From the NCBI GenBank assembly GCA_964016885.1, contig OZ024747.1, positions 21,514,001 to 21,578,000 on the forward strand: a DNA stretch of 64,000 bases, read 5' to 3'. Origin of the DNA: Eledone cirrhosa (lineage: Eukaryota). The notes under the pieces are model-generated. The model was given only the letters and a program-made list of their open reading frames with translations. It did no database searches and was not told where the DNA came from. The position numbers and the translations under genes are program-made. The number at the start of each line of letters is the position of its first letter. Positions within the stretch are counted from its first letter, which is position 1. Shown one piece after another: positions 41,171 to 55,811 of this stretch.

Positions 41171-41251
41171 TACTCTGCTATGTATTGAGTACCTTACTCA
41201 CTGTGGTTACCTCCGATTCAACCCGGAATAACTTACCTATATATATATATA

Positions 41252-42265
41252 AATACGAGTTCTAACCATCCACTCTCTATAATTAAATCCATCCCTAGAA
41301 ATGTTTCTCTTAGGATCTCCCGCCTGTCGTCCAACCAACAAACCTTCAAAGAACATGCCAAGTATTATGATGATGCACTTAGGAAAGCCGGTCACCTAGA
41401 TAATATAGAGTATATAGTCAAAGATCACCAAAACACCCAAAATAAATCACATAGGAGTAGAAATAGCACAGAATCACCACCATACATAAACTACCGCAAT
41501 AGACACAATAATAGTCGCACACCACCAAACAGAAGGCGATGTAAGGAGTATATTTGGTACAACCCGGTCTATAACAACTCTATTAAAACCAATCTACCCT
41601 CAAAATTCTTTCGATTAGTTAAAAAACACATAAATATAATAAAATCTTAAACCCTAACACTATTCGACTTTCATATTCAACCGCCCCTAATATTGAACAA
41701 CATATAAAAAAGCTTAACGCAAAACGGTTGTATAAACGCCTTCCAACACATAACAATACACGTAAAACATTAGCTATAACATCACAAAACAACAAACAAC
41801 ATCCTGTCCTACATAAGCAACCTCATCAACCCATCCATGCCAATACAACAACGCAAAATTATAATTGCAACTGTGTCCAACCAGGAATGTGTCCGTTGAA
41901 CAATCAGTGTCTTGAACGCAACATCGTATACAAATGTACTATCGAATTGGATAGACAGAAGTGGTACTATGTGGGATCTACAGCCACCTCCTTCAAATCA
42001 CGCCTTTATAGACATCGTTACTCGATAAAACATGAAAACCAGCGTTATGTAACAACACTCGCAGACAAGGCTTGGCAGCTGCGTGAAAATAACCAACAAT
42101 TTCACCTATTTCCATGGACAGGAATTTTGTAAATTATGTAATGTAGAATTATTTTGTATTATGAAATCCAAAAACATTTTATTAAATAACAGAATAGAGC
42201 GATCGTTATACTGTAACCATCGCTTAAAATCTACATTTTCATATTATAAATACTACCAGGATTGA
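41252..42265 (+). pseudogene. Penelope-like retroelement ORF remnant: RT thumb, linker and GIY-YIG endonuclease (Naiad-like), frameshifted
   Basis: Translates SSNHPLSIIKSIPRNVSLRISRLSS...YYDDALRKAGH; IWYNP; NTIRLSYS; CNCVQPGMCPLNNQCLERNIVYKC...YYVGST..FKSRLYRH; CKLCNVE...LLNNR...CNHR. Confidence 0.88.
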
Positions 42266-43972: not shown

Positions 43973-46900
43973 TTTAAAACTAGCTGTTGTGGAACTACTT
44001 ATATATATATCATCATTTCATCATCATTTTTTTTTTTTACGTCCGCTTTTCCCTGCTTGCAAGGGTGGATGGAAACTGATTCTGGCTTGATTTCTACAGC
44101 TGGATGCCCTTCCTAACACCAACCTCATTTACAGTGAGTGCTGGGTGCTTATTTGCCGTGGCACCTCCACAACCACTCTACAATGGAATGATAGGGAGCC
44201 CAGTCCCTATCATCTCATTTCTACAGCTGAGTAAACTGGAGCAATGTGAAATAAACAACACATCAAGGAAACAACACATCACCTGGTCTGAGAATTGAAC
44301 TCACAACCTTTCGATTACAAGCCCAATGCTCTAACCACTGAGCCATGTGCCTCCATATATATATACATATATATTTCTCATTTACTTCATCCTAAAAACA
44401 AAACATTGATAAATCATAATCTATTGGAGTGCAATAACAACACCCTATTCAACAACAAAGCCATTTTAATTGTTGATGACAGCAATAAATAGCCTGAGTT
44501 ATGCAATACACCGTCATGGAAACCCTTTCATCAATTATGGGCAAACTGCAATCCATTTGGCTTTCTACATGACATGCCTAATAAAAAATTACATTGAAAT
44601 TTTTAGTAGTGTAGCATGCCTCATAGTGAGCTATATCTCATGTAGCTTACTGCTCAAAAAAGTTTGCCCCTGCTTGTTCTACAGGTTCAATTGATCTGAG
44701 CTTCAAGAAATAGCAGCCAAATTTCGTTCAAATTACACCCTACCAGAGTAGTTTCCCTAAATTTTCACTGTCAAAGACTTTGTTCACTGAAATGAATTTT
44801 CACAAGGACTATTCCCCTCAGGCTTTTGAAAGGTGTGTCTGTTCAAGCTCACAGACCCACAGTACTACAATACTGCAATATCTCTGCAGACCCACCCAGC
44901 ACTACTTTGCCGACTCCCAGTACTACTACTATAGACATCTAACACTACTTCTGAAGACTCCTCAGCACTGCTATTTCTGTACTATTTCTGCTGACCTCTG
45001 CTCCAAGGTTTGTAAACTGTAAGTTAGGAATTTCTGCCCTACTGTCACAGGAAAGAACATGTTGGATAGTTGTGTCATGGGTTCTCTGACCACAGGAGAA
45101 AAAAACAGCTGGAAAGGTTTTGGCCATAGGTCTACCAAATCAGAGCTGCACTGAACTGAGGCAACAACAATTTTTAAAAAAACCTTTGAAACAATGAATT
45201 AGCCTCTACCTAGTTGTTAAACCTGCTGAAAATAGTAGCCAAACCTCCCACAAATCCCACATTTTTTTCTTCTTCCAAGATGTATTGAATAATATAGTCT
45301 GAGATAAACTAAGTAAAAAGGTATGTTGACCATAGACGAAATATCTTTTGCTTGTAGAGCTACAAAAAGGATACCAGCAAATCTCAAATTCACCAAGGTG
45401 TTATCAATGTAAAATATTATAAGAATGGTAAAGAAGTGCTCAGGTGTTTCATTATACTTTTGAAAATTCTAAGGAATTTACCAAAATGATGCTCCTCACC
45501 AAAACAAATAAATTATCTTTCACAAATTTTTATCAAAAGTTATAAAATAAGTCTGATTTCCTTTTTATATTGTTACTTTCTTTCTTTGGCTCATTGGAGT
45601 TTCTTATAAAACTTTGTATTTCTTTTGAAAGTCTTGAAAAAGAATACAGGTGACTAATTAGCTCCTTAAAATAGCTAAAGTTGTCTAATAATCTGGAAAG
45701 TGGCTAATTATCGTTTTTAAAAAAAGCTGAATATTGTTAATTAGTTTTTTAACAACAAGTTGGTTAATTTTTTAGTATTTTTAAAAGGCAGTCAGTGGCA
45801 GATACCTTTCTATAGAAAAACAAAATGGTTGATATCTTTAATTAATCATTAACTCTCACAGATTTAAACAAATGAAATATAAATTATATAGATTTGATTT
45901 CTAATTTTAAGCACAAAGCCAACAAATTAGGAGAAAAAGCAAAATTGATTAAATCAGCCTTAGCACTTGACAAGAATTTTTTTTTATCAACCCCTGGAAT
46001 GATAAAGAGCAAAGTTGACCACAGCAAGATTTGAACACAGAATGTAAGCAACTAGAAGAAATATTGAGGGGGGGGGGGGGGAGTAGATTGGGCTATTGAG
46101 AGTTAAGTGTCTTGACCATGGACACAAACGAGCACAAATACACACACACACTTAAACACACACACAAGCGCACACACAAGCACACACACACATTCAAACA
46201 TACACACACAAGCAGATACACACATTAATGTATTTTCTCTACCTGAACACTCTAGTTAACAACTCTGTCAATTTGCTGCCTTACAATAGTTCCACTCATT
46301 GTCTTATAGTCTTGAAATAAATATCTCTGATGCCAGAAACATGAGTCACCATTTCTCCTTCACAGCAAATAATGTTGTTACTGTCAGTAGGCACCTCTAA
46401 CAAAATACACCCCCCCACCCCCCACCCCACCCGTCTCACTACCCCCTACCCATCCACACCACCCCCTTAAATGTGAAGTTATGTTGGTACCACAACATCC
46501 AGTCCGAAACAAATGAGGTCGTGTAGGTGTCACGACAAAAAAAACACACAGTCCACGTGGTAATGTGGCCGTGTAGGTAACACGGTAAAAACCTCCCAGT
46601 TCCACACTGTATATGTGGTTGGTGTTAGGAAGGGCATCCAGCCATAGAAAACCCGCCAGACAGTCCTATACGAGCAGGACAACAAATCTTGCCTCAAGTT
46701 GGAAAACTTCCGTCCAAACCCATGCAAGCGTGGAAGATGGACGTTAAATGATGATGATGATGATGATGATGTTTAGCCTCATTTCAGCTATGGTCAACGA
46801 AACACACCTATGGTTGTTCCATTGCTTTCATTTCAGGCATCATGTATCATTTTTACATTATAATGAGTAGAATTAGTGGAACAGCTCCCATTAACTTCTC

Positions 46901-48534: not shown

Positions 48535-48629
<95 letters not shown>

Positions 48630-48751
48630 GAGGTGAGTTTTATTGTAGTACAATAAAGCAATGCAGATATCAGATAAGAAGCACTCTACAGTTTGTAGGA
48701 CTGGAGTATAAATAATATATAAGATCAAAAGATGGTTAAAAGAGTTCCATG

Positions 48752-48822
48752 TATTTTATTATGCGCATTTCAAAAACAAATATCATCATGCAATAACATT
48801 TGCGTTTTCGTCAGATAAAATA
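48752..48822 (-). ncRNA. Type I hammerhead, family F, minus strand
   Basis: TATTTTAT CTGACGA [stem II] GAAA T GCGC A TA / ATAAAATA; 8-bp stem I, palindromic loop III. Confidence 0.85.
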
Positions 48823-48948
48823 GGGAGACATGATATGAAGGTTAAAACACACTTGTGAATAGTGCAGTTTTAAATCAACATATCAGGATATGTTGATTTA
48901 AAACTGCACTATTCACAAGTGTGTTTTAACCTTCATATCACGTCTCCC

Positions 48949-49019
48949 TATTTTATCTGACGAAAATGCAAATGTTATTGCATGATGATATTTGTTTTTG
49001 AAATGTGCATAATAAAATA
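48949..49019 (+). ncRNA. Type I hammerhead, family F, plus strand
   Basis: TATTTTAT CTGACGA AAATGCAAATGTTA..TGATATTTGTTTTT GAAA T GTGC A TA / ATAAAATA. Confidence 0.8.
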
Positions 49020-49095
49020 CATGGAACTCTTTTAACAATCTTTGATCTTATATATTATATATATATATATATATAATATATAATATATATATATA

Positions 49096-52095: not shown

Positions 52096-52528
52096 GTCCA
52101 AACCCATGCAAGCGTGGAAGATGGACGTTAAACGATGATGATGATTATATATATATATAATATCATCATCATTCATTTCATCATTTTATTTTACGTCCAC
52201 TTTTCCCTGCTTGCAAGGGTGGGACGGGAACTGATTCTGGCTTGATTTCTACAGCTGGATGCCCTTCCTAACACCAACCTTATTTACAGTGAGTGCTGGC
52301 ACCTCCACGACCACTTTGCAGTGGAATGATAGGGACCCCAGTCCCTATCATCTCATTTCTACAGCTGAGTAAACTGGAGCAATGTGAAATAAAGTGAATT
52401 GAACTCACAACCTTTCGATTGCAAGGCCAATGTTCTAACCACTAAGCCATATATATATATATTTATATATATATATTATAATGAAATGACAGGAGGCTGG
52501 ATTTGTGTAAATCCTTGAAAGGTTTATT

Positions 52529-52586
52529 ATACTATGATCATTTCAATGACCGGGTTCCGTATGAAGCCGGTGATATCATCAGGTAT
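52529..52586 (-). ncRNA. Type I hammerhead, minus strand
   Basis: ATAC CTGATGA T ATCACCGG CTTC ATAC GGAA CCCGGTCAT T GAAA T GATC A TA / GTAT. Confidence 0.8.
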
Positions 52587-52785
52587 TCGAAATATAATAC
52601 ATGAATGTAATAGATAAAATCCATGGGGCTGAAAATCGTAGTGTTAAGGATAAGTAAAAAGATGGAGAGAGAGAGAGAAACGATTTACTAATATAAACAA
52701 ACCACTATCCTGATGTCTTCCAAAAGTAACGGTCGCATTTTGAAAGGGTACGTCAATGTTTATTTATAAAACTAGTATATATTGT

Positions 52786-52848
52786 ATTTTGTCTGATGAA
52801 GGCATACCATAATTTAACTTGGTATCCTTGAAATATGTATAATGAAAT
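52786..52848 (+). ncRNA. Type I hammerhead, plus strand
   Basis: ATTTTGT CTGATGA AGGCATACCA TAATTTAACT TGGTATCCT T GAAA T ATGT A TA / ATGAAAT; 7-bp stem I with two G-U pairs. Confidence 0.8.
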
Positions 52849-53579
52849 AAATATGGTTTTATAAATATAGTTTCCATTTGTTAATATCGTATATCTACTC
52901 CAAATACTTGTCGAGTGCTTTATATCAGTTATAAAAATATTTACTTGTTGTATCCCAACAATTTAAATAGAACTTTTGCATATATATATATATATATATA
53001 TCATAAAACATGTCTATAGAATCACCAGATAAAATATATACCATTTCCTCTCCAAATTAGCATAATTAACCATATAAAAAATCGAATAGACCAGGCTCTA
53101 AGAATAAGGCTTCTATGAAGAAATCTCCAACAAATTACCGAAACCAGCCCTTTGCGCCGGCTGCAACGGAATATTTATCGAATATTTCGACAGCGTAATC
53201 GCCTAGATATACAGTCAATTAAACAGAATTATGTGTAAAATAAACTAGGAGAAAAGAGAATACATTTATATATATATATATATATAATGGTAAACGGAAA
53301 AGAGAATGCTGACAAATTGTTCACAGTGAAAAATAGTTTAATTAGGAATAAGTGAGAATTAGTAATAGTATTGGTTAGTATTCAGTTTTGGTTTTAAGTT
53401 TTACCGGTTGCGCATTTCTAATGCTTTTCAAAAATAATTTTGAGATAGAGCGTCCGTGATGTTTGCTCTAATATATATATATATATATTGAACAATATAT
53501 ATTGTAGTCGCATATGTAGACAATGTATAATAGACACAGAAACATTTGTCAAAGCAAATAAATTCATAATCTCTTCACG

Positions 53580-53932: not shown

Positions 53933-54099
53933 ACCTCTTCTATTTCATTACCGCCAATCATGTCACCTGGTTCATACTTCAGTATGCAGATTGGAGCACT
54001 CGACGAAGTACGCAGGTTGGTTTGTTTACTCCGGAGTAATGTAAAATAATTAAGTCAAATATATAAAATTTGGCTTCGTTTATTACAAATTATAGATAT

Positions 54100-54154
54100 A
54101 CTGCTATATATATTTCGGTGACAGCCATCATTGGCTGTGACCTCTTCAGGCAGT
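54100..54154 (-). ncRNA. Type I hammerhead, minus strand
   Basis: Exact reverse complement of 54192-54246. Confidence 0.85.
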
Positions 54155-54191
54155 CCGAATTGGTGTGGGAAAGACAGGTACATGAATTCGG

Positions 54192-54246
54192 ACTGCCTGA
54201 AGAGGTCACAGCCAATGATGGCTGTCACCGAAATATATATAGCAGT
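54192..54246 (+). ncRNA. Type I hammerhead, plus strand
   Basis: ACTGC CTGAAGA GGT C ACAGCCA ATGA TGGCTGT C ACC GAAA T ATAT A TA / GCAGT. Confidence 0.88.
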
Positions 54247-54297
54247 ATATCTATAATTTGTAATAAACGAAGCCAAATTTTACATATTTGACTTAAT

Positions 54298-54341
<44 letters not shown>

Positions 54342-54881: not shown

Positions 54882-54911
<30 letters not shown>

Positions 54912-54916
<5 letters not shown>

Positions 54917-55310
54917 ATCAAAAGATGGTTAAAAGAGTTCCATGTATTTTATTATGCGTATTTCAAAAACAAATATCATCATGCAATAACATTTGTGTTT
55001 TCGTCAGATAAAATAGGAAGACATGATATGAAGGTTAAAATACACTTGTGAATAGTGCAGTTTTAAATCAACATATTCACAAGTGTATTTTAACCTTCAT
55101 ATCATGTCTTCCTATTTTATCTGACGAAAACACAAATGTTATTGCATGATGATATTTGTTTTTGAAATGCGCATAATAAAATACATGGAACTCTTTTAAC
55201 CATCTTTTGATCTTATATATTATTTATACTCCAGTCCTACAAACTGTAGAGTGATTCTTATCCGATATCTGCATTGCTTTATTGTACTACAATAAAACTC
55301 ACCTCCTACA
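54912..55310. mobile_element. Foldback Penelope-like end, family F copy 2, with hammerheads at 54945-55015(-) and 55113-55183(+)
   Basis: Highly similar to 48626-49058, reversed, with a different fold point. Confidence 0.85.
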
Positions 55311-55811
55311 TATATATATATATATATATAATATATATATATATATCCGCCAAAACTAAGGGTTGCCCCCCTTGTCAAGCCCCACGTGGGTTTTGATAAC
55401 GGTCAGTCCTTGGCTTGGCACTGAACTAAAAGCCTGTTGAGAAAGTGACTTCCTTGTTCGATCATCATACCAAAAGCTTAACATTATTTGTCTAAGCAGA
55501 CAGTACTTGATTTAGGAGTTGCAGAAACCCAATGCTGGATATTACAAACCTTCCAGGGGTCCGGGTATAATTTTCAATCATATTTTATGATATATAATTT
55601 TCAATCATATTTTATGACCCGAATTACTTGGTCGTTTCTATGGCTGTGCGGATAATGGTTTAACCATCGTCTCAGTGTGTTTGGCCTTTTAACTTATGTT
55701 GTAGCTCTAGTTCACTAGCTCCTATGGAGCGCTTGCCACACATCTCGGAAGTTGTTTTTCGCTAATTTCCAATAGCCGAAATACGATTCTCGCTAATTTA
55801 TATTTATATAT

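What the first reader, a model, noticed from the sequence alone, without database searches (positions are those of the whole stretch)
52480..52980. Two different hammerheads back-to-back in one 500-bp TA-bounded unit
Seen: complete hammerheads at 52529-52586(-) and 52786-52848(+) differ in all stems, point outward and have no (TA)n tract between them; only the right side has a motif-bearing tail. This is the foldback geometry but with non-homologous arms. Inference: either a chimera of two different Penelope-like RNAs in one integration or a genuine two-polarity ribozyme element.
Basis: partly seen in the sequence, partly recalled or inferred. Interest (0 to 1): 0.75.

Follow-up and report, generated by a model that had tools for sequence, protein, structure and literature searches.

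The report
Two-family Penelope retrotransposon chimera
This single-copy stretch is the ends of two different common jumping genes (Penelope-like retrotransposons) joined head to head, each bringing its own hammerhead ribozyme motif; it is not a new two-ribozyme element, and it likely arose when two different RNAs were copied into one DNA break.

Summary
Both hammerhead motifs are real, differ in all stems and point outward. Each half belongs to its own high-copy family: the right arm to a 4.0-kb Hydra-type Penelope-like retrotransposon (R), the left arm to a 2.0-2.6-kb non-coding relative (L). The junction occurs once in the 3-Gb genome, so a two-polarity ribozyme element is ruled out. The scan has already reported same-family foldbacks with one long and one short end in this genome; my two look-ups showed no census of cross-family ones. 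Here 10 of 325 sampled short-end arms (3%) are joined to another family. These chimeras break the long/short rule (4 long, 6 short partners, against 197 and 1 within families), so most do not come from the normal coupled route. For this unit, one integration episode with two RNAs is somewhat more likely (0.55) than a later deletion or second insertion (0.38). Cleavage, expression and polymorphism are untested.

The parts
52449..52480 (.). Left (TA)n tract, inferred target
   Evidence: L short-end arms end in TA at 166 and 191 exact pattern matches
52480..52639 (-). Family L arm, inverted, short-end (tail-less) type, 5' end just before a GC-rich hairpin of L
   Evidence: 97-99% identical to the best 40 scored copies; 1 private change in 159; arm-end cluster 11 of 58 arms in this 20-nt bin
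52529..52586 (-). Minimal type-I hammerhead of family L; 8-nt palindromic stem III; U-U at base of stem II
   Evidence: self-duplex of the stem III 8-mer -7.2 kcal/mol; cleavage untested
52633..52639 (.). Junction 1: 7 bases shared by L and inverted R; also the reverse complement of the first 7 bases of the forward R arm
   Evidence: junction pattern found once in the genome with up to 2 mismatches
52633..52682 (-). 50-bp inverted piece of family R, from directly upstream of the forward arm's start
   Evidence: found on the opposite strand next to the forward arm in most R loci
52680..52682 (.). Junction 2: 3 shared bases
52680..52979 (+). Family R forward arm, long-end (tailed) type; 3' end of a 4036-bp Hydra-type Penelope-like element
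   Evidence: 96-99% identical to 38 of the 40 scored places; full tandem unit with RT-endonuclease ORF in L061; 2 private changes in 301
52785..52849 (+). Minimal type-I hammerhead of family R; stem III palindrome with G-U pairs
   Evidence: self-duplex -2.2 kcal/mol; cleavage untested
52895..52979 (+). 85-nt tail between R's short and long end; begins with a small ACTC..GAGT hairpin motif (52897-52916)
   Evidence: 2432 exact short-end and 1426 exact long-end pattern matches; motif also follows the long end in read-through copies of R, L and S
52980..53001 (.). Right (TA)n tract, inferred target

Best explanation
The unit is a single-copy, head-to-head join of the 3' ends of two Penelope-like families, likely made in one integration episode in which the two sides of a break in a TA tract were extended on two different RNAs. 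Inferred steps: a Hydra-type endonuclease cut the TA tract; the right side was extended on R RNA from the long start site for about 300 nt; the left side was extended on L RNA from the short start site until the enzyme stalled before a GC-rich hairpin; that L cDNA end annealed by 7 shared bases to R RNA just where the first R cDNA had stopped, copied 50 nt, and was joined to the first cDNA through 3 shared bases. The hammerheads are passengers from the two parents' terminal repeats; each would likely need a second RNA of its own family to cut. Shown: three-piece anatomy, families, uniqueness. Inferred: the whole order of events, and whether one enzyme dimer or two separate complexes did it.
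For: Unique junction, halves common apart. Polarity equals that of normal two-armed insertions: short-end left, long-end right (197 of 198 resolved same-family units). The inverted R piece begins within 7 bases of the forward arm's start, as in L1 twin priming, where all 32 inversion breakpoints lay within 1-10 bp (PMC11702581 passage). The L arm ends in one of two clusters that flank a -37 kcal/mol hairpin (11 of 58 short arms in that 20-nt bin, about 3.7 expected if even), which suggests an original cDNA end. Private changes are alike: 1/159 L, 2/301 R, 1/50 inverted piece. L has no RT homology in two full units and shares R's start-site hairpin motif, so it needs a borrowed enzyme. Of the other chimeras 8 have filler bases at the junction and 2 microhomology, 2 unresolved, like integration junctions (48 of 95 with filler). 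Two-RNA, opposite-orientation insertions were seen for L1 in cells (PMC11702581 section 7); a PLE enzyme cuts and extends both strands and is modelled as a dimer (PMC11167929).
Against: Cross-family units do not keep the long/short rule: 4 long and 6 short partners against 197 and 1 (Fisher p 1e-8); an even split is what later collapse of two neighbouring foldbacks predicts, and on this count alone a rule-keeping one-event route explains only about 0.28 of long-partner chimeras. A 7-base microhomology is rare at integration junctions here (2 of 95 reach 7) and suits a repair deletion. L247 keeps an 85-bp and L121 a 23-bp stem of the partner, as remnants of an older foldback would. A jump to the forward arm's start is seen in only about 4 of 119 same-family junction zones. 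Equal ages are weak evidence: median arm-to-arm difference in all foldbacks is 1.6-1.8%. No empty or uncollapsed allele was seen.
Confidence: 0.55

Rival explanations
1. Two-step origin: an R foldback and an L copy lay side by side in one TA tract (or L inserted next to an older R foldback), and a microhomology-guided deletion removed the inner arms and the TA between them, leaving L joined to the loop of the old R hairpin.
For: Even split of partner end types among chimeras (4:6, binomial p 0.75 against one half). 34 of 91 foldbacks have another repeated end directly beyond their TA tract. 7-base microhomology. Partner stems kept in L121 and L247. One short deletion into a neighbour (L334) and one join from a forward stub into an inverted neighbour (L428) show that such deletions happen.
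Against: Neighbours mostly face the TA tract with a 3' end, so short deletions should land near a 3' end; 0 of 10 chimeras do (the nearest cases, L107 and L420, keep a TA remnant). The breakpoint falls within 7 bases of the inner end of a roughly 270-bp arm. Most chimeric junctions carry filler bases. I had no set of proven later deletions to calibrate the filler rate.
Confidence: 0.38
2. The join is an assembly error between two repeats.
For: No listed contig or read bridges junction 1 or 2 in six public runs of this and one related organism.
Against: The tool warns that a hole proves nothing and these runs may be other individuals. A three-piece join with microhomologies, private substitutions and ten analogues elsewhere looks biological.
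Confidence: 0.05
3. A genuine mobile element with a ribozyme on each strand, copied through a circular RNA of both polarities.
For: Both cores are intact and, unlike same-family foldbacks, not locked in a long hairpin (opening cost 8-11 against 96 kcal/mol).
Against: One copy of the junction in 3.0 Gb; no other place among the 40 scored holds both halves joined; each half is an ordinary truncated end of its own family.
Confidence: 0.02

Closest known systems
Endonuclease-bearing Penelope-like element insertions with an inverted 5'-truncated copy and a tail at one end (PMC8557442 Fig. 2 legend and passages; PMC3846280 passages)
   Same: Head-to-head arms, tail on one arm only, hammerhead in each terminal repeat, microhomology at the centre.
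   Different: The arms come from two families; tails are 85 and about 140 nt, not 30-40; PMC3846280 (passage) saw no cross-mobilization between its PLE types.
Hydra clade of PLEs, named example Hydra-1_Obim (PMC8557442 section 11 and supplement look-ups)
   Same: R's ORF has RWR, DKT, YRDD, CxCx5C, CxxC and CxH, a C-terminal nuclease region, a hammerhead and (TA)n targets.
   Different: R is 4.0 kb with a long 3' non-coding part; no tree or pairwise alignment to named members was made.
L1 twin priming and two-transcript insertions (PMC11702581 passages and section 7); synchronous L1 bridges (10.1101/2024.08.27.596794, abstract only)
   Same: Inverted piece starting next to the end of the first cDNA; opposite DNA ends extended on different RNAs and then joined.
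   Different: Other enzyme class, no poly(A), germline-fixed in this assembly, TA targets hide any target duplication.
Internal two-site initiation of Poseidon_Ac (PMC11167929, results read)
   Same: Two start sites that bound the tail; both DNA strands extended; hammerhead cleavage not needed for insertion.
   Different: In vitro both strands used the same start sites; here same-family units pair long with short almost without exception.
Animal non-LTR retrozymes (PMC7229834 passages; 10.64898/2026.07.22.740005 part 1 of 5)
   Same: L is non-coding, tandem and carries a type-I hammerhead with short palindromic stem III.
   Different: L's unit is 2.0-2.6 kb, not 150-450 bp; no circular RNA evidence.

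Membership tests
Hydra-clade PLE (family R) | Single ORF, RT followed by C-terminal GIY-YIG-type nuclease | tested here: met
   741-codon frame with 2 stops in L061, YRDD at 352, nuclease-like region after 600; read by motif, Pfam gave no significant match
Hydra-clade PLE (family R) | RWK motif, DKT for DKG | tested here: met
   RWR at 37 (K to R variant), DKT at 118 (definition)
Hydra-clade PLE (family R) | CxCx5C linker, CxxC and CxH, no CCHH | tested here: met
   CNCRNKSNC at 600, CDLC at 698, CRH at 725; no CCHH seen by eye
Hydra-clade PLE (family R) | Hammerhead in terminal repeat and (TA)n insertion | tested here: met
Hydra-clade PLE (family R) | Generally shorter than 3 kb (descriptive, not defining) | tested here: not met
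   unit 4036 bp
Hydra-clade PLE (family R) | Placement in the Hydra clade by RT phylogeny | not tested
PLE two-armed (inverted) insertion | Inverted 5'-truncated arm next to a direct arm, tail at one end | tested here: met
PLE two-armed (inverted) insertion | Both arms from the same element | tested here: not met
   no similarity between L and R arms or units
Minimal type-I hammerhead | CUGANGA and GAAA cores, NUH site, stems I and II, short palindromic stem III | tested here: met
   whole-motif folding energy is not better than shuffles (z -0.9 and -1.0)
Minimal type-I hammerhead | Self-cleavage | not testable with these tools
   needs a transcription-cleavage assay
Non-LTR retrozyme (family L) | Non-coding tandem unit with type-I hammerhead | tested here: met
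   read-through units L147, L184; longest open stretch 142 codons in L147; no tblastn match to R's ORF in L147, L184, L056
Non-LTR retrozyme (family L) | Monomer of 150-450 bp | tested here: not met
   about 2.0-2.6 kb
Non-LTR retrozyme (family L) | Expressed as circular RNA | not testable with these tools
   needs RNase R and divergent RT-PCR or suitable RNA reads
Two-polarity ribozyme replicon | The unit recurs as a unit | tested here: not met
   1 match in the genome

The most novel reading that the evidence does not exclude
Penelope-like elements load a separate RNA at each side of a TA break, and about 3% of two-armed insertions take the two RNAs from different families. These cross-family units drop the long/short end rule, which would mean that the rule comes from using one RNA or one complex, while free breaks in TA tracts can be patched from both sides by unrelated PLE RNAs. 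This unit would then record a non-coding parasite and an autonomous element sharing one integration.
Probability: 0.45. Interest if true: 0.65.

Novelty: new variant of a known kind. Interest (0 to 1): 0.4.

Why it matters
How Penelope-like elements make their inverted arms and one-sided tails is an open question (PMC8557442 discussion passages; PMC11167929). Same-family foldbacks cannot tell whether one or two RNA molecules were used; cross-family ones can. A 3% class with its own end-type statistics is a natural marker experiment, and it gives a direct prediction for the existing in vitro PLE system: mix two RNAs and look for head-to-head products. As a locus, the unit is a dead one-off with no sign of function.

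Tried and rejected
Rfam at gathering score: no hammerhead hit. Pfam on R's ORF: nothing significant. Search for a second copy or haplotype of the locus through its right flank: the flank is itself a repeat, no allele found. Public runs: no RNA holder listed; laying six runs (X1, X2, X4, X5, X19, X20) showed both families but no listed piece across either junction, which the tool says proves nothing. Snap-back of a single cDNA as the general source of foldbacks: rejected, since the inverted arm reaches further upstream than the forward arm in 60 of 119 same-family units. A short deletion into a neighbour as the source of chimeras: disfavoured by geometry. Ages as a discriminator: too weak. The binomial test of the L arm-end cluster used a wrong total (48 for 58) and is not used. 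L304 and L420 first looked chimeric but are nested insertions at an internal TA site; L301 is a nested insertion; L107, L270 keep a TA tract; L162, L179, L220, L387, L391 stayed ambiguous and are not counted as chimeras. Literature searches listed no title or abstract start on cross-family two-armed PLE insertions; most listed papers were not opened, subscription journals are missing, and bioRxiv supplements are closed.

Full report
Observation. Both motifs are present as described. Each is a minimal type-I hammerhead with a palindromic stem III: perfect over 8 nt in the left motif, with G-U pairs in the right. Such motifs are reported to cleave better as dimers (PMC7229834, passages on amphibian motifs); cleavage here is untested. 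No shuffle of the unit in 3000 gave a motif on both strands. The window holds three more outward-facing pairs, all with same-family arms.

What the halves are. The right 300 bp match a family (R) with 1965 first-look candidates; 38 of the 40 scored places match it at 96-99%. A tandem copy gives a 4036-bp unit with a 741-codon RT-nuclease frame that has the Hydra-clade motifs of PMC8557442 section 11. The left 160 bp match a second family (L; 328 candidates). Two read-through copies give a 2.0-2.6-kb unit without RT homology. L and R share no alignable sequence, but both, and a third family S, have the same small hairpin motif just past each of two fixed end points. Copies end either about 55 nt after the cleavage site (short end) or 85 nt (R) or about 140 nt (L) further on (long end). 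This fits the two start sites that bound the tail in PMC11167929, and earlier notes of this scan.

The junction. Between the arms lies a 50-bp inverted piece of R taken from directly upstream of the forward arm. L joins it through 7 shared bases, and it joins the forward arm through 3. The same 7 bases open the forward arm, so the inversion starts with a 7-bp duplication. The junction occurs once in 3.0 Gb with up to 2 mismatches.

Census. I took short-end arms found by exact patterns, using the first listed places along the contigs, not a random draw, and leaving out the window's own arm: 168 L, 127 R and 30 of a third family F4, 325 in all. Classes came from scripts and were re-read by eye: 197 same-family partner with long end; 1 same-family partner with short end (L253); 24 same-family partner whose end was not reached or is cut; 58 TA tract at the 5' side; 20 unresolved; 15 other or ambiguous DNA; 10 joined head to head to another family (3.1%, interval 1.5-5.6%). 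Of 60 long-end arms: 32 same-family short partner, 0 long, 1 other family (L311, end type unknown), 2 other DNA, 6 TA, 19 unresolved. L057, from the non-random one search set, is one more chimera with a motif-bearing partner end. The partners of the ten are long in 4 (L082, which has a TA-like filler, L121, L176, L373) and short in 6 (L158, L189, L241, L245, L247, L386), against 197 and 1 within families (p 1e-8). For L176's family only one end type was seen; it is called long because it carries the tail motif.

Mechanism. Shown: a one-off head-to-head join. Inferred: how. For one episode with two RNAs: the polarity of a normal insertion; an inversion start next to the first cDNA's end, the twin-priming mark in L1 (PMC11702581); an L end in a cluster before a strong RNA hairpin; alike private changes; filler-rich junctions in most other chimeras, not different from same-family junctions (p 0.17 on a rough 7 of 9); and L1 precedent for two-transcript insertions. 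For two steps: the even split of end types, which alone leaves about 0.28 for a rule-keeping single route; a microhomology longer than 93 of 95 integration junctions; partner stems kept in L121 and L247; frequent repeat neighbours, 34 of 91. Two separate complexes cutting one tract at the same time would also give the even split and would still be one episode. I put one episode at 0.55 and two steps at 0.38; these weights are judgement, not a computed result.

Function. A transcript from either strand would hold one hammerhead. Unlike a same-family foldback it is not predicted to fold into long double-stranded RNA (longest helix run 12-13 against 95-149; opening cost 8-11 against 96 kcal/mol). 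Nothing points to a role at this locus.

Novelty. Inverted, one-tailed PLE insertions and their hammerheads are in print (PMC8557442, PMC3846280, passages) and were noted many times in this scan. The element is a new variant of a known kind; the value lies in the class and its broken end rule.

Papers seen: PMC11167929 parts 1-2 of 4 (all results); PMC8557442 passages, section 11, three supplement look-ups; PMC3846280 and PMC7229834 passages; PMC11702581 passages and section 7; 10.64898/2026.07.22.740005 part 1 of 5; 10.1101/2024.08.27.596794 abstract and outline. Statements on palindrome collapse and repair deletions are recalled and come from no call. Family labels R, L, S, F4 are mine.

Noticed in passing
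window 48624-49067, 54897-55311, 54030-54300: Three same-family foldbacks with outward-facing hammerheads (two of family F4, one of another family); both F4 units and the third have one long and one short end.
   Followed up: partly
window 53002-53267: A 265-285-bp TA-bounded repeat with both ends fixed, about 2000 first-look candidates, some in tandem or inverted pairs; no hammerhead found by my descriptor.
   Followed up: partly
L147, L184, L056 (family L): A 2.0-2.6-kb non-coding tandem element with one hammerhead per unit, far larger than described retrozymes; its truncation points cluster on both sides of a GC-rich hairpin.
   Followed up: partly
L063:5700-6500, L262 (family S): An autonomous Hydra-like family whose hammerhead-like core reads CAGAAGA in place of CUGANGA in the copies printed; it is L's partner in two chimeras (L082, L158).
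   Followed up: no
L264 and L241 (family F23): Hammerhead-like motif with core CCGACGA in this copy and CTGACGA in L254.
   Followed up: no
L373, L189, L245: The partner arms belong to AACC-rich families without the Hydra tail hairpin; earlier notes tie such ends to Naiad elements. If so, these chimeras join two PLE clades.
   Followed up: no
L353-L363: A roughly 550-bp TA-targeted tandem family with about 2700 first-look candidates and a GAGTGC motif; no hammerhead seen by eye in the printed part.
   Followed up: partly
L301, L304, L420: Foldbacks of other families nested at short internal TA sites of family R.
   Followed up: partly
window 41246-42253: Fragments of a Hydra-like ORF, 45-52% identical to R's protein.
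   Followed up: no
window 52160-52449 and 44288-44345: tRNA-like SINE copies; the first abuts the left TA tract, the second gave the only Rfam hit.
   Followed up: no
one search list: G000:C1:207614383-207614732 and C1:259244253-259244537: Two F4 units that seem to have short ends on both arms; not fetched, so same-family short/short units may be commoner in F4 than in R and L.
   Followed up: no
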